A stretch of 64,000 nucleotides of DNA from an uncultured bacterium (GCA_963718575.1 OY970358.1:386172-450171), one strand, 5' to 3'. Counted from the stretch's first letter, positions 1 to 8,886 are shown. Notes: generated by a model from the sequence alone, not told the origin. Translations and numbers: made by a program.

Positions 1-488
1 TTCTTGAAGTCGTGCGTCCCGGCCCAACCGTAGGCGATCAATTCATGGGCGGGAAGATAATCTTTCCTGCCGATAACAGCATTGCTCTTAAGCCAAATGA
101 GTAGCTGAGAAAAATGCACGCCAGCCCGTTCCATGCCGTCGCGAAGCGCAAAAAGCATCTTATCCGAGTTAAAAATATAGACGGTGTTCTTGCGCTCAAG
201 ATGGGGCACGATCGCAGACAGCCACTCAGCCGTAAAGCGAGCGTACTCGCTCTCGGAGGCAAAGTTGTCGTTCAAGATATTTTTTGCCACTCTGATCTTT
301 GCGAATCCCGCCTTCGATTCCGCATATGCTACGGAATATGGAACGTCGCAACAGACGAGTTTTATTTTCCGCTTCCCGACGAGCCGATTCACAAGATCGG
401 CATCGCGGGCATCTGCGCACATGAGCAAATGATTTCCAATGCGGAACGCATCCCCATATTCTATTTTTTTAATTGAGTTTTTTGGCAT
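1..488 (-). CDS. DNA methyltransferase (N6-adenine/N4-cytosine class), partial; runs off window start
   Basis: Minus-strand translation from ATG at 488-486: MPKNSIKKIEYGDAFRIGNHLLMCADARDADLVNRLVGKRKIKLVCCDVPYSV... has a DVPY (DPPY-like) catalytic motif and an N-terminal pattern typical of N4/N6 MTases. It overlaps the stop of the upstream MTase by 20 nt and is absent from the ORF track because it is truncated by the window edge. Confidence 0.6.
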   Translation of the reverse strand, partial: MPKNSIKKIEYGDAFRIGNHLLMCADARDADLVNRLVGKRKIKLVCCDVPYSVAYAESKAGFAKIRVAKNILNDNFASESEYARFTAEWLSAIVPHLERKNTVYIFNSDKMLFALRDGMERAGVHFSQLLIWLKSNAVIGRKDYLPAHELIAYGWAGTHDFK

Positions 489-1752
489 GGATATTGGTCA
501 GGCGTTCAAACCTGGAAATAGTTAGATCGCAAAATACCGGTTCCAATTCGACCGTGTAGACCCGGCGCTTCAGTTGATGGGCGCTGATTAATGTGCTGCC
601 GCTGCCGCAGAAACTATCTAATATGATGTCGCCCGGCTTCGTGCAGCGGCGTATCGCTCGCTCGTGGAGCGTGGGCGGCTTGCTGGTTGCATGCTGATAC
701 TCGCTGCCCGGCAACCGCTTCGCCAGCCATATCTCAATGCCGTCGAGAATATCGTCGAGCGTGCGATTGCCCGTGCCGATCTCCTTATTCATGATCTCGG
801 AAAGATTTTCGATGCCCTTCGTGATCGGCGGCTTGTTTCTGACTCCATAAATACAAGGTTCATAAATCTTGCTGAACGCCACGCCGGGCGTTAACCCCAA
901 TCCATTTTTGATCCATAAGCAGGTGCGCTTGTAATCAATGCCGATCTCCCGATAGAGCGTCTGCAACAACCATACGTACGAGGAATCGCAGTAATAGAAG
1001 ACGTGCACGTCATCCTTCGCGACTGCGAGCGCGTTTACCATGCTCTTGCGGAGGAATTCCCTATAGGCTTCGTCGGTGCGCGTATCATTCACGCTGCCGC
1101 CGTAATTGGCGCGGCCGCCGACACCCTTCGCATAATCGACGCCCCCGCGCAAATTGTAGACCGGATCGGAATAGATCATCGATGCCTTATCGTTGCCGAA
1201 CAGCTTTTTGAGGACGGCGGAATCGTTCGCGTCGCCTACGGCCAGCCGGTGCGGTCCCAGCTGATAGATCTCGCCGAGTTTCGATTTCGGCTTTTTTATC
1301 TTCGCACGCTCTTTCTCTTCATCCCAATGGTCATCTTCCGCTTCGAGCATGCCGTCCCACAGATTTGCGAGTTCGTTCTCATCCATGCCGATCTCAATTA
1401 ACGTCTCGATATCGAAGGCCTGGAGCTTGGAAACGTCCCATTCGCCATGCAGCGCGTTGCTCGCGATCAAATAGCGATCGAATTCTTCCTTAGTGAGCTT
1501 GCGGTTCGGCACTCTGACGTCGACCATCTGATCGCCCATGCCCATTTCCATCATCGCTTGATGGCGGTGCTCCCCTGCGGCGATCGTGCCGTCGACATCG
1601 ATGACGATGATTTCGGCGTAACCGTTAATCTTGAGGCTCTTCTTTAAATTGCCGAACTGCCGCTCCGTATTGGTATTTGGATTTTGAGGACAAGGCTTAA
1701 GACTTTTCAAAAGCCTCCGTTCGTTGTGCCACGCTAAAGGTTGTCTGTTCAT
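469..1752 (-). CDS. ParB-like nuclease domain fused to a DNA N6/N4 methyltransferase (phage-type orphan MTase)
   Basis: The N-terminal region (IIVIDVDGTIAAGEHRHQAMMEMG) resembles a ParB/Srx fold. The C-terminal half has the SDPVYN (DPPY-like) motif followed by ILDSFCGSGST (the FxGxG AdoMet motif), the order expected for a beta-class N6A/N4C MTase. Confidence 0.75.
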   Translation of the reverse strand: MNRQPLAWHNERRLLKSLKPCPQNPNTNTERQFGNLKKSLKINGYAEIIVIDVDGTIAAGEHRHQAMMEMGMGDQMVDVRVPNRKLTKEEFDRYLIASNALHGEWDVSKLQAFDIETLIEIGMDENELANLWDGMLEAEDDHWDEEKERAKIKKPKSKLGEIYQLGPHRLAVGDANDSAVLKKLFGNDKASMIYSDPVYNLRGGVDYAKGVGGRANYGGSVNDTRTDEAYREFLRKSMVNALAVAKDDVHVFYYCDSSYVWLLQTLYREIGIDYKRTCLWIKNGLGLTPGVAFSKIYEPCIYGVRNKPPITKGIENLSEIMNKEIGTGNRTLDDILDGIEIWLAKRLPGSEYQHATSKPPTLHERAIRRCTKPGDIILDSFCGSGSTLISAHQLKRRVYTVELEPVFCDLTISRFERLTNIHAKKLN

Positions 1753-1771
1753 TGAGTTTATTTAATTAATT

Positions 1772-2146
1772 TTAATTTGCCTTCTTTTGGCCTTTTATCT
1801 GCAGCTCGCCGACATACTGGAGCCACAGCCGAATTGCACCCGGATTTCCTTCTTTCGCCTTTTCGCGGAGGGCGTTGATGACCTCCGGCAGATCGCTCTT
1901 CTCCCGCGCGAGAATTTCGTGTCGGATCAGCGCGGCGAATCCCGGCAATTTTTTCCAGTCCGATAACGTATCGGGGCTGACTCCGAATTTTTTCGCGAAC
2001 ATCTCCTGCGTTTTTACCTCGCGCAATGTGCGCGGCGTCGCGGAAAACCTGACGAATTCTTCAAATTCGCTGGTCAACCTGATGGACGGCAAAATTCTCT
2101 TAATCTCGGACTCCATAGGAGTGGAAACGTTTATTTTGGGGTTCAT
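1772..2146 (-). CDS. small HTH protein, possibly a phage terminase small subunit-like or transcriptional regulator
   Basis: MFAKKFGVSPDTLSDWKK is helix-turn-helix-like. The ORF lies next to phage-type methyltransferases. The start was chosen at the internal Met (MNPKINV). Confidence 0.3.
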   Translation of the reverse strand: MNPKINVSTPMESEIKRILPSIRLTSEFEEFVRFSATPRTLREVKTQEMFAKKFGVSPDTLSDWKKLPGFAALIRHEILAREKSDLPEVINALREKAKEGNPGAIRLWLQYVGELQIKGQKKAN

Positions 2147-2512
2147 AATGTTATTTTTTATTGATTTCGGCCTTTTTGAGCAACAAAAAAACCCGAGATA
2201 AATCCACGACATCCCAGCAAAGGAATGTCTTTGGACTTATCTCGGGCTCATCCGATGGCGAGGTCTAAGTATAGACCTTACGAACCACGGTATACCGACC
2301 TCGTGCTACGCGGGTATGATTTTCCTCCTAGTCCCGCCTATGAAGAAAACCACAACTATTTACTTTTCAAAAATAAAACCGTCGCGGGATATTTTCATTG
2401 TACCCATCTCGCATCTTAAATCAAGACCCGGCTGCCTGTGCAAAACCCAATGCTTTATAGCAACGCGAATAGCGCTCTTCGCGGAACCGAAAGAACCTGC
2501 TAAAATGCAACT

Positions 2513-3247: not shown

Positions 3248-3309
<62 letters not shown>

Positions 3310-3329: not shown

Positions 3330-4355
3330 TTAGCTTCCGGCCGCCCATTTGTTTTCTTCCCTGAACCAAAAAGGAAATTCTTCTTTGATGTGCTGAGCGA
3401 GACGCGCCGCGTTGCCGTGCGTGAGCATTCCCGCATACGACGCCACCGCCTGTTCGGTGGGATTTTCTCTCAGGCCGCGAAACATTCGCTTCTTGCTCGC
3501 CGTCCGCACGACGCGATGATCGGGAAAATGAATCCATCCGAGGAAATCGATGCCCGAGGCGAAACTCTTGATATAAACTTTATCGGGATGAAGGGCAAGC
3601 TTGAGCCGCTCGCCGAGAAATACGCTGATCTGCGGCATCAGATTTTCCAGGTACCGTCTGTCGCGAGAAAGTATTGCGAAATCGTCGGCATAACGGAGAT
3701 AGTACGCTATCTTCAGCTCGCGCTTCATAAATTGGTCGAATTCATTCATATAAATATTCACAAGAAGTTGCGAGGTAAGATTGCCGAGCGGAAGCCCCAC
3801 GCCCGGCCTCGTCGACGAGAAGCTCCCGATCACTTCTCCGAGAAGCCATCGGATTCCTTCGTCGGAAATCCGGCGGTGCAAAATTTCCGAAAGCACGCCA
3901 TGGTCGATTGTCGCGAAGAACTTCCGGATGTCGCATTTCAAGACCCAGACCGTTTTCGTATGATTCGCGCTCTCCTTGCGGGCGAACGAATCAAAACAAT
4001 CCAGCGCCCTATGCGTTCCCTTGTCGACGCGGCAGGAATACGAGTGAGAGATAAACGTTGTATCGAAGAACGGATAAAGCCTTCTATAAATGGCATGATG
4101 AAGCAAGCGATCCCGCACGGACGCCTTATGGATATTGCGCGGCTTCGGGTCGCAGATGTTGAACGCACGATACGGCCCATGCCGATACGAATGAGAAATG
4201 AGATCCCGATGGAGCAGGAAGATATGATCCATGAGGCGCAGCGAGAATTCCTGAACATCGGGTTTATTCCGCTTGCCGACAATGAATTCCGTCCACGCCT
4301 CCAAAAGATTTTCGACGCTCGCGATATCTTCGAGCGTACCCTGAAACTGAATCAT
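3330..4355 (-). CDS. diversity-generating retroelement (DGR) reverse transcriptase
   Basis: The RT motifs appear in the correct order: SYSCRVDKGTHRAL (DGR-type motif 2), LPLGNLTSQ (the DGR-specific [ILV]GxxxSQ in place of QGxxxSP) and YLRYADDFAIL (catalytic YADD). The 341-aa size is typical of DGR RTs, and TR/VR repeats lie adjacent. Confidence 0.88.
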   Translation of the reverse strand: MIQFQGTLEDIASVENLLEAWTEFIVGKRNKPDVQEFSLRLMDHIFLLHRDLISHSYRHGPYRAFNICDPKPRNIHKASVRDRLLHHAIYRRLYPFFDTTFISHSYSCRVDKGTHRALDCFDSFARKESANHTKTVWVLKCDIRKFFATIDHGVLSEILHRRISDEGIRWLLGEVIGSFSSTRPGVGLPLGNLTSQLLVNIYMNEFDQFMKRELKIAYYLRYADDFAILSRDRRYLENLMPQISVFLGERLKLALHPDKVYIKSFASGIDFLGWIHFPDHRVVRTASKKRMFRGLRENPTEQAVASYAGMLTHGNAARLAQHIKEEFPFWFREENKWAAGS

Positions 4356-4364
4356 GTATAAAGT

Positions 4365-4766
4365 ATGAACGAAACAACGCCAATTCCCAACCGTGCGACG
4401 CTGCCGATCCTGAAGCGGCTGATTACGGTATATAAATCATGGCATGAGACGATGCCCAATCTCGCGAAGACTTCGCGCTATACTTTGGGCGAGAAAATCG
4501 ACGCGCACCTCCTTGAGGTAATCGAACTTGTTTACACGGCAAGCTTTTTGCCGAAGGAGGAGAAATTACCGCTCCTGCAGAAAGCGATGGCGAAAACCGA
4601 TCTTCTCAAATTCTTCTTCCAGATAGGCTGGGAAATAAAATCGCTCGATGTCAAAAAATATATCGCGTTTTCTGAACAGCTCGATGAGATAGGCAGACAG
4701 CTCGGCGGATGGGCGCGGCAGTCGGCACAAAAAGAAACTCCCGCCCCCAAACGAGGGCGGGATTGA
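4365..4766 (+). CDS. avd: Avd-like accessory variability determinant (four-helix-bundle protein, TIGR02436-like)
   Basis: This 133-aa helical protein has a C-terminal LDEIGRQLGGWARQ resembling the bAvd C-terminus IAEVGRILGSWIAR, with matching overall helix periodicity. It lies between the TR and the RT but on the opposite strand, with its start codon 9 nt from the RT start. Confidence 0.65.
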   Translation: MNETTPIPNRATLPILKRLITVYKSWHETMPNLAKTSRYTLGEKIDAHLLEVIELVYTASFLPKEEKLPLLQKAMAKTDLLKFFFQIGWEIKSLDVKKYIAFSEQLDEIGRQLGGWARQSAQKETPAPKRGRD

Positions 4767-4777
4767 AACGAAGAGGG

Positions 4778-4910
4778 TTGCGCGGGCGGACGCCAGCGAG
4801 GACGCAGTTGTCGTTGAACCTGTTGTCGGGATAGTTCAGGTTGAGCTTGCGGTACTTAGCGTTGCGGTTCAAGTACACGATGCGACGGTTGCGGTTCGGG
4901 TCCAGCCAAG
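4778..4910 (-). repeat. DGR template repeat (TR), 133 bp
   Basis: It aligns base for base with 5309..5441 (offset 531). It has A on the minus (coding-sense) strand at all 16 mismatch positions and reads as AAC-rich codons in the target frame (LNRNAKYRKLNLNYPDNRFNDN). An A-free GC-rich 28-nt tract lies at its 3' end. Confidence 0.88.
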
Positions 4911-5228
4911 GAATGTGCGGAAAGTCATCTGCGCCACCGCCTCTCGGTGCCGGGCGAGAAATCTCGAAGCCGACAGCTTAAGGCTGAATCGAATTTGGAA
5001 TGTCCCCGTGAAGGTAATTCTCCAACTTCCCGCACCAAGCATCCTCGATTTCAAAAACATCAAGAGTCACACTGGAATGAGGCGTACCCGATTCCACTCC
5101 GGACTCTTGCGATGCTGGGTTCGACCGCCCGAAGCCGTAGCCGCAGGCATGCTGATCTACTTCCTGATAGTAATTGTGAGCCATTTTTATAAAAAAATAA
5201 AATCGGAAGACAAGTTCAAAAAAGAAAT

Positions 5229-5252
5229 GCCCGTTCCAAAATCGGAACGGGC
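5229..5252 (-). terminator. hairpin (9-bp stem gcccgttcc/ggaacgggc) followed by a T-run on the minus strand; terminator of the DGR target gene and possible DGR-associated stem-loop
   Basis: Inverted repeat read from the sequence. On the minus strand it is followed by tttcttttttg. It lies 46 nt 3' of the target-gene stop, between VR and TR. Confidence 0.5.
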
Positions 5253-5298
5253 AAAGGGACTGAGGGTCAAAAATCCAGAGGGCGAAAGCGCTTCAGTT

Positions 5299-5931
5299 CT
5301 AAGACTGTTTGCGCGGGCGGACGCCAGCGAGGACGCAGCCGCCGTCGAACCTGTCGACGGGATAGAACAGGTCGAGCTCGCGGTACTCAGCGCCGCGGCG
5401 CAAGTACACGATGCGACGGTTGCGGCTCGGGTCCAGCCAAGCTTCGTGCAGGAAGATCACGAACGGCTTCTTTCCGGAAGTCGTCGCTTTCCCGTGCTGC
5501 TCGGCGAAACGGATGCCGTGCTCGTACGTCGGGCGAAGCAGACCCTTCTCTTTCAGGATCGCAAGACCTTCTTCTTCGCTGAAGCTCTTGCCGGGGTCGA
5601 CGATTTCGATCTCGTCATCCCACGGCGTTTCGGAGGCTGTCAGCGGGAAGTTGGCCTGCGTGATCCAGTCGTTGAAGGGAAAGCCCAGCGCGGCCGTGAT
5701 CTCGTCGGTGTTGTTCGACCCGCCCATCTTCACCGTGAAGACAGAGGGGTCGAAGCCGAGAACCTTCTGAAACTCGTCTCGGTTGACCTTTGTCGGGTCG
5801 AGTTCCGCAGCGCAGCGCCGAAGATCGGTGAGAAGTCCGGAAGCAATCAATGCTTGAAGCTGACCGGACTCAAGGGTTTCAAACAGTTCGGCAAGATGCT
5901 TGCCTTGGGAAAGGGTAGCGGTCGTTGTCAT
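5299..5931 (-). CDS. DGR target (variable) protein, 210 aa, C-terminal VR-encoded domain (possibly a C-type-lectin/FGE-like fold)
   Basis: An AAGGAG RBS lies 6 nt upstream of the ATG at 5931. The C-terminus WLDPSRNRRIVYLRRGAEYRELDLFYPVDRFDGGCVLAGVRPRKQS is encoded by the VR. No signal peptide was recognised. Confidence 0.8.
   Translation of the reverse strand: MTTTATLSQGKHLAELFETLESGQLQALIASGLLTDLRRCAAELDPTKVNRDEFQKVLGFDPSVFTVKMGGSNNTDEITAALGFPFNDWITQANFPLTASETPWDDEIEIVDPGKSFSEEEGLAILKEKGLLRPTYEHGIRFAEQHGKATTSGKKPFVIFLHEAWLDPSRNRRIVYLRRGAEYRELDLFYPVDRFDGGCVLAGVRPRKQS
5309..5441 (-). repeat. DGR variable repeat (VR) at the 3' end of the target gene
   Basis: It is 117/133 identical to the TR, and all 16 differences map to TR adenines (coding strand A to G at 12, A to T at 3, A to C at 1). 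It encodes the C-terminal 44 aa of the target protein and ends 8 nt before the stop. Confidence 0.88.
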
Positions 5932-6102
5932 ATGCAACTCCTTCTGCTAGTCCACCGTTTGGATTTTTTGATTGGCGGGTTATAGCTTTCAGGCCGCGAG
6001 ATGGCTCATGGGCTGGAAGCTATAACCGCACCTTGGTTTATTAAAGAACGCTATCATTATACTATTATCAGAAATGCTTGTCAATGGCTCGGTTTTTTGT
6101 AT

Positions 6103-7005: not shown

Positions 7006-7584
7006 ATGAAAAAAAATAAAATATCTGCAAAGAATCCCACGCGCATTGGCGCGGATTTTTTCGATCGGCTGTGGCAGAAGAGCTGGACATATATCAAGAC
7101 CGTTGTTGATGTGGTGCGCGAACCGGTGCTCGTGCTCGACAAAGACCTTCGCGTAATGGCGGCGAACGATGCGTTCTATGAAACGTTCAGGGTTAAATCG
7201 AAAGAAACGGAGGGAAATATCGTGTATCAACTCGGCGACGGCCAGTGGGATATTCCCTCATTGCGAAAACTTCTTGAAGATATCCTTGCGCATAATACTT
7301 TCTTCAAAGGATTTCAGGTCGCCCATGAATTCCCCGGGATCGGGCGCAAGGTGATGATATTGAACGGACGACAGATCTATATTGAAGATTATGATAAAAA
7401 GGACTCGTTCCCGCCGATCATCCTGCTCGCCATCGAAGACGTCACCGAAATGATGGTGGTCGCCGAATCGCTTGCGAGCCACAACGATCAGATTGAAGCA
7501 AAATTCGTCATTCGCACGCAAAGATTGGAGGCACAGATCGAAAAAATGGAGCGGGAGATCGCCAAGCTCAAAAAACGGGCATAA
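7006..7584 (+). CDS. PAS-domain protein with C-terminal coiled coil (paralog 1)
   Basis: The PAS-fold core is REPVLVLDKDLRVMAANDAFYETF...GQWDIPSLRKLLEDIL, and the C-terminus is a heptad-like IEKMEREIAKLKK. It is about 78% identical to the ORF at 8302..8886. Confidence 0.6.
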   Translation: MKKNKISAKNPTRIGADFFDRLWQKSWTYIKTVVDVVREPVLVLDKDLRVMAANDAFYETFRVKSKETEGNIVYQLGDGQWDIPSLRKLLEDILAHNTFFKGFQVAHEFPGIGRKVMILNGRQIYIEDYDKKDSFPPIILLAIEDVTEMMVVAESLASHNDQIEAKFVIRTQRLEAQIEKMEREIAKLKKRA

Positions 7585-7746
7585 GATCGCATCTTGCCAG
7601 AATCACGTTCGCGTGGGATTCTTAGGGTATCATCGTAATCTCGTTGTAACGGCGACCTCCGCCGTGCGCGCCATTTGCCCTATCTATTACCTTGCCGGGG
7701 TAATATTCGTGTCACAGAACACCGTCATCATCGGCTTATATACGTA

Positions 7747-8271
7747 ATGACTCCCAAACAGGAGGCAAAACGGCAGGCGGCGTTGACAACTGCACACCAC
7801 GACTACGGAAGGGGGCTCCATTTGTATGCATTTTTCAAAGTGCGCAATCGCGCCGTAAGCGAGGACCTGGTACAGGACACGTTCATAAAAACGTGGGGGT
7901 ATTTGGTAAGGGGGGGCAAAGTGGTGGTCATGAAGGCATTTCTCTATCACATCCTCAACAATCTCATCGTGGATGAATATCGAAAGCATAAAACTGTCTC
8001 GCTTGATGTCCTGCTCGAAAAAGGATTCGAACCGAAAGCGCTGCACTCCGGATCCCCTCGCCGCCTTTTTAATTTTTTAGACGGGAAAGCGGCGCTCATT
8101 TTGATCCAGCGTCTTCCGGAAAAATATCAGATGGTGCTACGCATGCGTTATGTACAAGACCTATCACTCAAAGAAATCTCGCTCATCACCGGGCAGTCAA
8201 AAAATACCATTGCGGTCCAGATACACCGCGGGCTTGAACGACTGAAAGAGCTCTACAATCCTTCGGTGTAA
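7747..8271 (+). CDS. ECF-type RNA polymerase sigma-70 family factor
   Basis: Region 2 is EDLVQDTFIKTWGYL...LYHILNNLIVDEYRKHK and region 4 is LSLKEISLITGQSKNTIAVQIHRGLERLKE. The start was chosen at the ATG at 7747 (MTPKQ). Confidence 0.75.
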   Translation: MTPKQEAKRQAALTTAHHDYGRGLHLYAFFKVRNRAVSEDLVQDTFIKTWGYLVRGGKVVVMKAFLYHILNNLIVDEYRKHKTVSLDVLLEKGFEPKALHSGSPRRLFNFLDGKAALILIQRLPEKYQMVLRMRYVQDLSLKEISLITGQSKNTIAVQIHRGLERLKELYNPSV

Positions 8272-8301: not shown

Positions 8302-8886
8302 ATGGAAAAAAACAAGCGAGGTGAAGGACAAACCATTAGCCCTGTCGGTGCCGATTTTTTCGAGCGCCTCTGGGAGGAAAGCTGGACGTATATTAAAACC
8401 GTCGTTGACGTCGTGCGCGAACCCATTTTAATCCTCGATAAAGACCTTCGCGTGATGGCGGCAAACGAATCCTTCTATAACACATTCCAGGTGGAATCAA
8501 AGGATACCGAACATAAGATCGTGTATGAGCTCGGCAACGGCCAATGGAATATCCCCTCCCTTAAAAAACTCCTGGAGGATATTCTTCCCAAAAACACGTT
8601 CTTTAAGGGCTTTGAGGTCGCCCATGATTTTCCCGCGATCGGCCGCAAGATCATGATCCTTAATGCCCGCCAGATACACGTCGCCGCGAATGCCGCCGCG
8701 CCGCTCTTTCCGCCCATCATCCTGCTTGCCATGGAGGACGTGACGGATATGATGGCGGTCGCAGAGACGCTCGCCAACCACACAACCCAGCTTGAATCAA
8801 AACTCACAGAACGAACACAGATCCTCGAGGCGCGCATCGGAGATCTGGAAAAGGAGATCGGCAAGTTGAAAAAGGCGGCCATGTAA
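8302..8886 (+). CDS. PAS-domain protein with C-terminal coiled coil (paralog 2), candidate partner or anti-sigma of the adjacent ECF sigma
   Basis: Paralog of 7006..7584, located immediately downstream of the ECF sigma gene. Confidence 0.55.
   Translation: MEKNKRGEGQTISPVGADFFERLWEESWTYIKTVVDVVREPILILDKDLRVMAANESFYNTFQVESKDTEHKIVYELGNGQWNIPSLKKLLEDILPKNTFFKGFEVAHDFPAIGRKIMILNARQIHVAANAAAPLFPPIILLAMEDVTDMMAVAETLANHTTQLESKLTERTQILEARIGDLEKEIGKLKKAAM

What the first reader, a model, noticed from the sequence alone, without database searches (positions are those of the whole stretch)
3330..5931. Complete diversity-generating retroelement: RT, Avd, TR and a VR-bearing target gene
The RT has the three diagnostic DGR features: SYSCRVDKGTHRAL, LGNLTSQ (LGxxxSQ in place of QGxxxSP) and YADD. 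An Avd-like four-helix-bundle gene lies beside it. Two 133-bp repeats (TR 4778..4910 and VR 5309..5441, offset 531) are 117/133 identical. The VR forms the last 44 codons of a 210-aa ORF, and the TR copy is non-coding, lying just past the 3' end of the oppositely oriented avd gene. This is the canonical signature of adenine-directed mutagenic retrohoming, here in what appears to be a reduced-genome bacterium.
Basis: partly seen in the sequence, partly recalled or inferred. Interest (0 to 1): 0.92.

Follow-up and report, generated by a model that had tools for sequence, protein, structure and literature searches.

The report
Active Patescibacteria DGR with RNA leader
This is a genuine, apparently active diversity-generating retroelement of the type already known to be common in ultra-small (CPR/Patescibacteria) bacteria; the one new observation is that its template repeat sits inside a conserved, highly structured ~430-nt non-coding RNA that current databases do not list.

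Summary
TR 4778-4910 and VR 5309-5441 are 117/133 identical, and all 16 mismatches are at TR adenines on the minus (coding) strand (P = 3e-12). The RT's best solved relative is Bordetella phage Brt. The neighbouring gene is an Avd. The 210-aa target has a predicted C-type-lectin fold. Six natural alleles of the target share an identical backbone and differ almost only at TR-adenine codons, so the element has been active recently.

The layout target-TR-(inverted avd)-RT is the published "B3" architecture, which accounts for 90% of CPR DGRs, and the RT belongs to the Patescibacteria-restricted DGR clade.

One thing goes beyond the finding. The 398 nt between the VR and the TR are not empty, and their 68-aa ORF is not a gene. 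They encode a ~250-nt structured RNA leader fused 5' to the TR. It has 47 predicted base pairs, 42 of them with compensatory changes, and 93.8% pairing against about 45% in slid controls. It has its own promoter-like element. It pairs with the 3' flank of the TR. A stem-loop and U-tract follow the TR, encoded opposite the Avd C-terminal tail. Rfam has no matching family. I read it as a permuted equivalent of the BPP-1 Sp RNA; that reading is inferred, not shown.

The parts
3330..4355 (-). DGR reverse transcriptase gene (341 aa)
   Evidence: ORF and motifs SYSCRVDKGTHRAL, LGNLTSQ, YADD. Pfam RVT_1. phrog_1423 at E 8e-105. Best PDB hit 8ub7_A at E 3e-44, which is Brt of BPP-1. More than 8000 relatives at E<=1e-30, and all those carrying names are Patescibacteria.
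4365..4766 (+). avd accessory gene (133 aa), divergent from the RT. Its last ~9 codons are encoded opposite the stem-loop that follows the TR.
   Evidence: PF22296 bAvd 46.1 bits (cut-off 40). NF033474 DivGenRetAVD 67.5 bits (below cut-off 80). phrog_3206 'Avd protein of DGR'. Inverted orientation seen in all related loci. The stop codon lies about 7-12 nt from the TR end and the tail overlaps the hairpin.
4729..4762 (-). Stem-loop (10 bp, GUUU loop) plus U-tract directly 3' of the TR. It looks like an intrinsic terminator and is a candidate Avd-binding stem-loop.
   Evidence: Terminator scan. A GC-rich hairpin about 12 nt after the TR followed by a T-tract occurs in about 33 of 40 related loci, with different stem sequences. 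The analogous stem-loop Sp3-33 binds Avd in BPP-1 (preprint 10.1101/2023.10.23.563531).
4765..4773 (-). 3' strand (CUUCGUUUC) of the long-range helix that pairs with the leader. It overlaps the avd stop codon.
   Evidence: Duplex found in most loci. Cognate pairs average -7.1 kcal/mol against -4.3 for non-cognate pairs, permutation p<=5e-5. Coordinates.
4778..4910 (-). Template repeat (TR), 133 nt, 32 adenines. In the VR frame it encodes WLDPNRNRRIVYLNRNAKYRKLNLNYPDNRFNDNCVLAGVRPR.
4911..5162 (-). Structured RNA leader fused 5' to the TR. Helices H1/H2 5157-5123 and H3/H4 5106-5065. Long-range strand 5052-5043. Invariant CUUGG 5039-5035. H5 5035-5024 pairs with 4926-4915 and encloses H6 5020-4998 and H7 4984-4939. 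It replaces the spurious 68-aa ORF at 4978-5184.
   Evidence: The spacer is conserved at the nucleotide level with no conserved ORF. Alignment A2. 47 predicted pairs, 42 with compensatory changes. 93.8% of cells paired against 42-48% in slid controls; covariation score 0.78 against 0.14-0.19; 0 of 500 shuffles reach it. Covariance model R1 hits 4907-5041 at E 5e-16, the only hit in the window. One hit per RT locus and none in RT-less loci. No Rfam family.
5167..5172 (-). Candidate -10 box (TACTAT) of the leader-TR RNA. The predicted transcription start is near 5162.
   Evidence: It aligns with an extended -10 element (TGnTAnnnT) found 15-16 nt before H1 in 24 of 35 related loci. In the window itself the match is weak and the consensus scan did not flag it.
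5228..5253 (-). Terminator-like hairpin (11 bp plus T-tract) after the target gene, 56 nt past the VR end.
   Evidence: In related loci an equivalent hairpin and T-tract directly precede the leader promoter.
5309..5441 (-). Variable repeat (VR), codons 164-208 of the target.
   Evidence: Six natural alleles differ almost only at TR-adenine codons.
5299..5931 (-). Target gene (210 aa): helical N-terminus followed by a compact C-type-lectin-fold domain that carries the VR. It has no signal peptide or hydrophobic stretch on inspection.
6056..6084 (-). Perfect sigma-70 consensus (TTGACA-17-TATAAT) upstream of the target gene.
   Evidence: 12 of 12 matches. The region as a whole has no more promoter-like sites than shuffles do, so this is a sequence match only.

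Best explanation
The locus is a complete, recently active diversity-generating retroelement of the CPR/Patescibacteria lineage, with the architecture target-TR-(avd)-RT known as 'B3'. It diversifies the last ~30 variable codons of a small C-type-lectin-fold protein. The theoretical repertoire is about 10^17.5 protein variants.

Proposed mechanism, with the status of each step:
(1) The TR is transcribed on the minus strand as part of a ~430-nt non-coding RNA, about 5162 to 4730. This RNA has its own promoter just after the target's terminator, a ~250-nt structured leader, the 133-nt TR, and a stem-loop with U-tract. The structure and the positional conservation of the promoter-like and terminator-like elements are shown by comparative analysis. 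The transcript ends are inferred.
(2) The leader folds into helices H1-H7. A 12-bp helix (H5) ends 4 nt before the TR, and a further helix joins the leader to the 9 nt just 3' of the TR, so the TR is held as a closed loop. These pairings are shown by covariation.
(3) An RT-Avd complex binds this RNA. cDNA synthesis is cis-primed near the TR 3' end and stops at H5. In this reading H5 corresponds to the BPP-1 'cPRT Stop' duplex and the invariant leader UUG:CAA contact to the template:primer duplex, but these elements lie 5' of the TR and not in a 3' spacer. This step is inferred by analogy with BPP-1 and is not shown.
(4) The RT misincorporates opposite template adenines, and the cDNA replaces the VR. 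The outcome is shown by the A-only mismatch spectrum and by six natural VR alleles. The biochemistry is inferred from established DGR knowledge.
(5) The varied C-type-lectin surface changes ligand specificity. The ligand and the cellular role are unknown.
Against: There are no expression, cDNA or retrohoming data for this element. TR and VR are identical over their last 30 nt, so no IMH/IMH* difference marks donor and recipient. The window's own leader promoter is weak: TACTAT with no TG extension, not flagged. If the U-tract terminates transcription efficiently, the RT needs its own promoter inside avd, and I could not identify one. The UUG:CAA 'primer' contact involves invariant bases, so covariation cannot test it. 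My search for BPP-1-like duplexes downstream of the U-tract was crude. The analysis of Handa et al. reports predicted upstream:downstream 'Stop' duplexes in DGRs including CPR members, which may be a different reading of the same RNA.
Confidence: 0.9

Rival explanations
1. The element is a DGR, but its functional RNA is organised as in BPP-1. The TR is co-transcribed with the RT, and the essential priming and RT-binding elements lie downstream of the TR in the RNA antisense to avd. The stem-loop with U-tract is then only the Avd-binding hairpin and not a terminator. The upstream leader is a regulatory or stabilising 5' UTR and not part of the reverse-transcription machinery.
For: In BPP-1 all essential non-template RNA except 20 nt lies 3' of the TR. 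Handa et al. predict Avd-binding stem-loops just downstream of the TR in 207 of 278 DGRs, including CPR members. Read-through would give the RT a promoter, which I could not find otherwise.
Against: The hairpin is followed by a strong U-tract in about 33 of 40 loci. No duplex signal appears between the TR flanks and the 260 nt beyond the U-tract (mean z about 0). That region must also encode Avd on the other strand. The leader pairs specifically with the TR 3' flank, with compensatory changes, and H5 abuts the TR. Both are hard to explain for a mere UTR.
Confidence: 0.2
2. The DGR is a fossil. The genes and repeats are intact, but mutagenic retrohoming no longer occurs, and the VR differences are old.
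For: A sister lineage (cluster of P0004, 89% identical) shows an almost invariant VR across 11 alleles. Many family members sit far from any RT. Some close relatives carry a single fused TR/VR copy.
Against: Six VR alleles sit on a backbone that is 100% identical over residues 1-166, and on DNA flanks that are 99.4% identical with a 100% identical RT. Such VR-restricted, A-restricted divergence without neutral divergence elsewhere implies recent events. The RT, avd, TR and all RNA helices are intact.
Confidence: 0.05
3. The region between VR and TR encodes a small protein (the 68-aa ORF at 4978-5184), or an sRNA unrelated to the DGR, and not a part of the DGR RNA.
For: An ATG-initiated 68-aa ORF exists in the window, and ORFs of 50-80 aa occur in some relatives.
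Against: Across 35 loci the longest ORF ranges from 11 to 80 aa, in different frames and positions. The ORF has no family hits. Its ATG lies upstream of the conserved -10 position. Base-pair covariation is very strong. The motif is found only next to a TR on the RT strand, including loci whose VR lies elsewhere, and it base-pairs with the TR 3' flank.
Confidence: 0.03
4. The locus is not a DGR. The RT is a group II intron, retron or defence RT, and the repeats are an ordinary duplication.
For: The NCBIfam group II intron RT model gives the best NCBIfam score (140 bits), and source databases name the protein 'retron-type RT'.
Against: That score is far below the model's cut-off of 300. Brt of BPP-1 is the best solved relative by 24 orders of magnitude. 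No intron RNA domains or retron msr/msd were found by Rfam. An A-only mismatch spectrum in codon positions 1 and 2 is not produced by ordinary duplication.
Confidence: 0.01

Closest known systems
CPR/Patescibacteria DGRs: architecture B3, TR-(avd)-RT, of Wu et al. 2018 (PMC5758913), and DGR clade 2 of Roux et al. 2021 (PMC8144416)
   Same: The gene order and the inverted avd are the same. The RT clade is restricted to Patescibacteria. The element is chromosomal. The target is small, has no recognisable domain, and carries the VR at its C-terminus. TR adenines sit in AAC codons.
   Different: Nothing fundamental differs. This target family (about 120 members) is unnamed, and I could not check whether it equals one of the UVR1-6 classes. 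[quoted passage not shown] The held papers do not mention the leader RNA described here.
Bordetella phage BPP-1 DGR (mtd-avd-TR-brt), the mechanistic prototype
   Same: The RT motifs match, and Brt is the best solved relative. There is an Avd partner, adenine-specific mutagenesis, a C-type-lectin-fold target with a C-terminal VR, a stem-loop right after the TR, and a ~12-bp helix involving the sequence just 5' of the TR.
   Different: [quoted passage not shown] There is no ~140-nt spacer RNA 3' of the TR. Most conserved structure (~250 nt) lies 5' of the TR instead. The RNA appears to have its own promoter and terminator. No IMH/IMH* difference is visible. The host is a cellular chromosome and not a phage, and the target is not a tail fibre.
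Rfam RT-10 motif (the BPP-1 spacer RNA) and the other RT-1 to RT-19 motifs of Weinberg et al. 2017 (PMC5737381)
   Same: These are structured RNAs adjacent to a TR or RT and are proposed to serve DGR reverse transcription.
   Different: No Rfam model matches 4650-5320 even at E<=10. The position relative to the TR is opposite: 5' here and 3' there.
Solved DGR variable proteins TvpA (2y3c) and Mtd (1yu0), and the FGE/EgtB C-type-lectin-like domains
   Different: There is no detectable sequence similarity. The domain is much more compact, the framework motif differs (…FLHEAW…R.L.L.YP..F…CVLAGVRPRK), and the N-terminal helical domain is unrelated.

Membership tests
Diversity-generating retroelement (DGR) | RT of the DGR clade (motif-4 LGxxxSQ-type signature; closer to Brt than to group II intron, retron or Abi RTs) | tested here: met
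   LGNLTSQ, SYSCRVDKGTH and YADD are present. 8ub7_A, which is Brt of BPP-1, scores E 3e-44 against about 1e-20 for group II and retron-type RTs. All NCBIfam non-DGR RT models score far below their cut-offs. No dedicated DGR-RT HMM such as MyDGR was available.
Diversity-generating retroelement (DGR) | TR/VR repeat pair whose differences are confined to adenines of the TR | tested here: met
   16 of 16 mismatches at TR adenines and 0 elsewhere, P=3.4e-12.
Diversity-generating retroelement (DGR) | VR inside a protein-coding target, with TR adenines in codon positions 1 and 2 (AAC-rich) | tested here: met
   The VR covers codons 164-208 of 210. The 32 adenines split 14 and 18 between positions 1 and 2, with none in position 3. 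Nine codons are AAC.
Diversity-generating retroelement (DGR) | Accessory variability determinant (Avd) or another accessory gene | tested here: met
   PF22296 bAvd scores above its gathering cut-off. phrog_3206 matches. NF033474 scores 67.5 bits, below its cut-off of 80. No sequence hit to solved Avd.
Diversity-generating retroelement (DGR) | VR displayed on a C-type-lectin (or Ig) fold | tested here: met
Diversity-generating retroelement (DGR) | IMH at the VR 3' end distinct from IMH* at the TR 3' end, and a GC-rich inverted repeat after IMH | tested here: inconclusive
   A GC-rich 30-nt adenine-free 3' segment is present but identical in TR and VR. Wu et al. note that identical IMH and IMH* occur in some DGRs. 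The nearest hairpin after the VR lies 56 nt downstream and looks like the gene's terminator.
Diversity-generating retroelement (DGR) | Ongoing mutagenic retrohoming (VR heterogeneity in populations; cDNA) | tested here: met
   Met at the level of natural alleles. Six VR alleles sit on identical backbones and differ at TR-A codons, with a static sister lineage as contrast. cDNA synthesis and retrohoming themselves cannot be tested with these tools.
CPR-type DGR, architecture B3 (Wu et al. 2018) / DGR clade 2 (Roux et al. 2021) | Order TR-(avd on reverse strand)-RT, with the target upstream on the RT strand | tested here: met
   Window coordinates. The same order is seen in all related loci.
CPR-type DGR, architecture B3 (Wu et al. 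2018) / DGR clade 2 (Roux et al. 2021) | RT relatives restricted to Patescibacteria/CPR hosts | tested here: met
   All named relatives of the RT and of the target are Patescibacteria or Parcubacteria lineages. No phylogenetic tree against the published clade was built.
BPP-1-type DGR RNA (Rfam RT-10 / Sp spacer) | About 140 nt of structured spacer 3' of the TR, carrying the primer, the Stop-duplex strand and the RT-binding stem-loop | tested here: not met
   No Rfam hit at E<=10. A stem-loop and U-tract end the conserved RNA about 45 nt after the TR. No duplex signal appears further downstream. The conserved structure is 5' of the TR instead.

The most novel reading that the evidence does not exclude
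In the B3 DGRs that dominate Patescibacteria, the RNA machinery for cis-primed reverse transcription is circularly permuted relative to the Bordetella phage paradigm. A ~250-nt structured leader 5' of the TR would supply the Stop duplex (H5, ending 4 nt before the TR), the primer-side strand (invariant CUUGG next to H5, contacting the terminal CAA of the TR), and probably the RT-binding elements. A covarying helix ties the leader to the TR 3' flank. The whole unit would be an autonomous ~430-nt ncRNA with its own promoter and terminator, and its 3' stem-loop would be co-encoded with the Avd C-terminal tail on the opposite strand. This RNA family is absent from Rfam 15, and I found no description of it in the papers I could read.
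Probability: 0.4. Interest if true: 0.65.

Novelty: new member of a known kind. Interest (0 to 1): 0.42.

Why it matters
As a DGR, this locus adds one more well-behaved example to a clade already known to be very abundant in CPR bacteria. Its value lies in being a clean, complete and demonstrably active case on a near-complete 0.88-Mb genome. Its small, probably cytoplasmic C-type-lectin target belongs to an unnamed family of about 120 proteins.

The more useful outcome is the RNA. How B3-type DGRs prime and terminate cDNA synthesis has not been studied experimentally, and the only mechanistic model (BPP-1) places the essential RNA 3' of the TR. Here the inverted avd occupies that position. 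The comparative data define a compact RNA with explicit, testable helices and candidate ends. That would allow in-vitro reconstitution of a Patescibacteria DGR and a direct test of whether DGR RNAs can be permuted. A covariance model of the leader would also give a protein-independent marker for locating TRs in fragmentary metagenome contigs.

Tried and rejected
1. Sequence searches for the target protein in Pfam, NCBIfam, PHROGs and the PDB found nothing. Only fold prediction was informative.
2. The exact-sequence lookup of the target (P0001) found no contig. The RT lookup gave only short contigs, one of which (L001) turned out to be useful.
3. I searched the whole window for further VRs with the A-masked TR and found none.
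4. I searched for BPP-1-like long-range duplexes between the TR flanks and the 260 nt beyond the U-tract. There was no signal over shuffles (mean z about 0). The method allows long interior loops and is crude, so this is weak negative evidence.
5. Rfam at gathering threshold over the window and at E<=10 over 4650-5320 gave only a tRNA and sub-threshold terminator-like hits.
6. A PDB sequence search with Avd gave no hit, so I confirmed the identity of 8ub7 through the phage collection instead.
7. I tried to read Paul et al. 2017 (Nat Microbiol 2:17045; PMC5436926), the main CPR DGR paper. It is not held, so I cannot exclude that the leader is mentioned there.
8. I considered the 68-aa ORF at 4978-5184 as a fourth DGR gene and rejected it.
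9. I considered the inverted avd as a local rearrangement and rejected it, because it is clade-wide and published.
10. I looked for RT and avd promoters in the 9-nt divergent junction by eye and with the consensus scan. Nothing convincing turned up.
Full report
OBSERVATION. All 16 mismatches are T on the plus strand of the 4778-4910 copy. That is A on the minus strand, the coding strand of the ORF that contains the other copy. With 32 A in 133 nt, the chance that 16 of 16 mismatches fall on A is 3.4e-12. All TR adenines occupy codon positions 1 or 2, and nine codons are AAC. Homology stops abruptly at the 3' end (…CGCAA). On the 5' side the tool's 147-nt extension only adds scattered matches with non-A mismatches. 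A scan of the whole window with the A-masked TR found no further VR. The VR covers codons 164-208 of the 210-codon ORF, and the substitutions lie in codons 169-198.

PROTEINS. The 341-aa RT (3330-4355, minus) carries SYSCRVDKGTHRAL, LGNLTSQ and YADD. Its best solved relative is 8ub7_A at E 3e-44, against about 1e-20 for group II intron and retron-type RTs. I verified that this chain is 100% identical to Brt of Bordetella phage BPP-1. Non-DGR RT models in NCBIfam all score far below their cut-offs. Among phages the RT matches 172 records at under 40% identity, including Bordetella phages, ANMV-1, Faecalibacterium phage Lagaffe and crAss-like phages. The 133-aa ORF at 4365-4766 (plus) matches Pfam bAvd above its cut-off and the PHROG 'Avd protein of DGR' family. 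It matches the NCBIfam DGR Avd model below the cut-off.

ACTIVITY. A 3.1-kb contig from another metagenome (L001) has a 100% identical RT and 99.4% identical DNA over 3 kb. It runs from the avd flank through one repeat copy into the target body. That copy differs from the TR at 15 sites, 14 of them TR adenines and one a G next to a mutated A. It differs from the window's VR at 17 sites, 16 of them TR-A positions. The 90%-identity cluster of the window's target holds five alleles that are identical over residues 1-166 and differ only within residues 167-199. In a sister lineage (89% identical), 11 alleles have an almost invariant VR and vary in the N-terminal part instead. That contrast shows the VR-restricted pattern is not a clustering artefact. 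I conclude that mutagenic retrohoming has operated recently in this lineage. The theoretical repertoire is about 10^17.5 proteins.

CONTEXT AND WHAT IS KNOWN. The source contig is 881,652 bp, and every named relative is Patescibacteria or Parcubacteria. I fetched 80 metagenome loci with RTs 58-83% identical. In all that include the flank, avd lies inverted directly upstream of the RT, and the TR lies just beyond the avd 3' end on the RT strand. About 45 of them show an A-specific TR/VR pair, usually 430-530 nt upstream. [quoted passage not shown] 2018, PMC5758913). Roux et al. 2021 (PMC8144416) describe a Patescibacteria-restricted DGR clade 2 whose targets typically lack recognisable domains, and they predict new C-type-lectin variants there. 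Many homologues of the target sit alone among housekeeping genes with no RT nearby. These are remote or orphaned targets, which is also known for CPR DGRs.

WHAT LIES BETWEEN VR AND TR. On the minus strand the target gene is followed by a terminator-like hairpin (5253-5228). After that come 398 nt that contain a 68-aa ORF with no hits. Across 35 loci this spacer is conserved at the nucleotide level (273 significant pairs), although the RTs are only about 60% identical. There is no consistent ORF: the longest is 11-80 aa, in different places. Alignment of the 270 nt before the TR (A2) shows three things:
(i) An extended -10 element, TGnTAnnnT, lies 15-16 nt before the first helix in 24 of 35 loci, immediately after the target's terminator. 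The window has TACTAT at 5172-5167.
(ii) About 250 nt of conserved sequence follows.
(iii) Compensatory changes are obvious by eye.
RNAalifold predicts 47 pairs in seven helices, and 42 pairs have double compensatory changes. On the same alignment 93.8% of cells are paired, against 42-48% when partners are slid by 1-3 columns. The covariation score is 0.78 against 0.14-0.19. There are 447 double-change cells against 68-100. None of 500 shuffles reaches the observed values. The structure was predicted on this same alignment, which favours it over the slid controls, but the margin is very large.

A covariance model of the TR-proximal junction (H5-H7) finds exactly one hit in the 64-kb window, at 4907-5041 on the minus strand with E 5e-16. 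It finds 57 hits in the loci, one per RT locus. All but one lie on the RT strand just upstream of the TR, and about 23 are in loci not used for the model. There are no hits in 16 loci that hold only target homologues. Loci whose VR lies elsewhere or on the other strand keep the motif next to the TR. Rfam 15 has no matching family even at E<=10. That includes the RT-1 to RT-19 motifs of Weinberg et al., among them RT-10, which is the BPP-1 spacer.

THE 3' SIDE OF THE TR. In about 33 of 40 loci a GC-rich hairpin starts about 12 nt after the TR and is followed directly by a T-tract. The stems differ in sequence. In the window this is 4762-4739 plus GUUUCUUUUU. The avd stop codon usually lies about 7 nt from the TR end (12 nt in the window). 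The conserved Avd tail (…GGWxGQLxKQNSPxxxGEK*) is therefore encoded opposite the U-tract and both stem arms, so this sequence has a dual use. In BPP-1 the stem-loop just after the TR (Sp 3-33) is the Avd-binding element, and Handa et al. predict such stem-loops in 207 of 278 DGRs, including CPR members (preprint 10.1101/2023.10.23.563531). The hairpin itself is therefore probably a known element. The U-tract and the antisense coding are what stand out.

A HELIX JOINING LEADER AND TR 3' FLANK. The leader segment just 5' of the invariant CUUGG-H5 has consensus AAAUGAAG. It is complementary to the conserved segment just 3' of the TR, CUUCAUUU. Divergent loci keep the pairing with other sequences: L075 CAUACGA/UCGUAUG, L059 and L087 AGAGACAG/CUGUUUCU, L078 AAAAUAACA/UGUUAUUUU, L100 AAGUGAAG/CUUCGCUU, and the window GAAAUCGAGG/CUUCGUUUC. 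In a test that does not depend on an alignment, cognate leader/flank pairs average -7.1 kcal/mol against -4.3 for non-cognate pairs, and none of 20,000 partner permutations reaches the observed mean. In most loci the invariant UUG next to H5 can also pair with the terminal CAA of the TR. Both sides of that contact are invariant, so covariation cannot test it.

MECHANISTIC READING. These things are shown by comparative analysis: the helices, their position relative to the TR, and the positional conservation of a promoter-like and a terminator-like element. From them I infer that the DGR RNA is a discrete ncRNA of about 430 nt, running from about 5162 to about 4730 on the minus strand.

In BPP-1 the primer strand (Sp 53-56, paired to TR 118-121) lies immediately next to the strand (Sp 59-70) that pairs with the segment just upstream of the TR. 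That pairing forms the 'cPRT Stop' duplex, where cDNA synthesis ends. Here a strand able to contact the TR 3' end (UUG, 5038-5036) lies immediately next to the H5 strand (5035-5024). H5 pairs with 4926-4915, which ends 4 nt upstream of the TR. The adjacency is the same as in BPP-1, but the module is connected on the 5' side of the TR instead of the 3' side. I therefore propose a circularly permuted DGR RNA in which H5 is the Stop duplex and priming occurs near G4781. This is an analogy and not a result.

The main rival is a BPP-1-like read-through RNA whose functional elements lie in antisense avd. I give it about 0.2. In its favour, it would solve the missing RT promoter. Against it are the U-tract, the lack of any duplex signal downstream (a crude test), and the specific pairing of the leader with the TR flank.

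VERDICT. The finding is confirmed and correctly interpreted. It is a new member of a known kind: a CPR B3 DGR. It is not the near-unique discovery that the first-stage score implied. The structured leader RNA is the part worth following up. I could not read Paul et al. 2017, so prior description cannot be excluded. In the papers I could read, the DGR ncRNA is described only as having a structured trailing sequence 3' of the template (PMC8867640).

Noticed in passing
L022:2525-3110, L023:5-420, L001:1-212 (window equivalent: 4778-5441): In the three closest relatives (RT 83%, 83% and 100% identical), the target gene body is joined directly to the avd flank through a single repeat copy. The leader RNA and the second copy are missing. 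In L022 and L023 the copy is chimeric: the 5' half is VR-like and the 3' half is unmutated and TR-like. The ORF loses its stop codon and reads into antisense avd (this is P0059, 255 aa, seen on 8 contigs). This is either a real TR x VR recombination deletion that kills the DGR, or a recurrent assembly mis-join.
   Followed up: partly
window 3251-3290: A (CT)20 microsatellite lies between the RT stop codon and the stop codon of the convergent MBL-fold hydrolase gene. Its length is polymorphic: (CT)23 in L001 and at least 15 at the end of contig L003.
   Followed up: partly
window 5978-6027 and 6056-6084: A perfect sigma-70 consensus (TTGACA-17-TATAAT, minus strand) lies upstream of the target gene. 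A 23-nt-arm inverted repeat (83% complementary) sits in the predicted ~118-nt 5' UTR and may be a regulatory hairpin. I did not check whether it is conserved in relatives.
   Followed up: no
window 4729-4766 and the equivalent position in about 30 loci: The Avd C-terminal tail beyond the helical bundle (consensus …KQNSPxxxGEK*) appears to be dictated by the stem-loop and U-tract on the opposite strand. One DNA segment would thus serve as protein tail, RNA hairpin and probable terminator.
   Followed up: partly
L004-L007, L009, L012, L016-L021: Many homologues of the target protein sit alone among housekeeping genes (sigma-70/AlaRS, L21/RecR/DnaB) with no RT within 6 kb. Some genomes carry two paralogues with different N-terminal domains (P0083 and P0093 on one contig, P0007 and P0099 on another). 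I did not test whether they are remote targets of a distant TR.
   Followed up: no
cluster of P0004 (alignment A5): A sister lineage of the target (89% identical) shows an almost invariant VR across 11 alleles while its N-terminal region varies. This suggests that its DGR is silent or lost.
   Followed up: partly
window 469-2212: The ORF at 469-1752 is a ParB-like N6/N4 DNA methyltransferase fusion (phrog_498, E 4e-78). The adjacent HTH protein at 1772-2212 weakly resembles terminase small subunits. These may be remnants of a mobile element beside the DGR.
   Followed up: no
window 7006-7584 and 8302-8886: Two paralogous PAS-domain ORFs (192 and 194 aa, clearly similar in sequence) flank a sigma-70/ECF-like ORF at 7675-8271.
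   Followed up: no
L051:1530-1608: This is the only covariance-model hit on the strand opposite to the RT. It is cut off by the contig end, downstream of the RT, and may belong to a second, convergent cassette.
   Followed up: no
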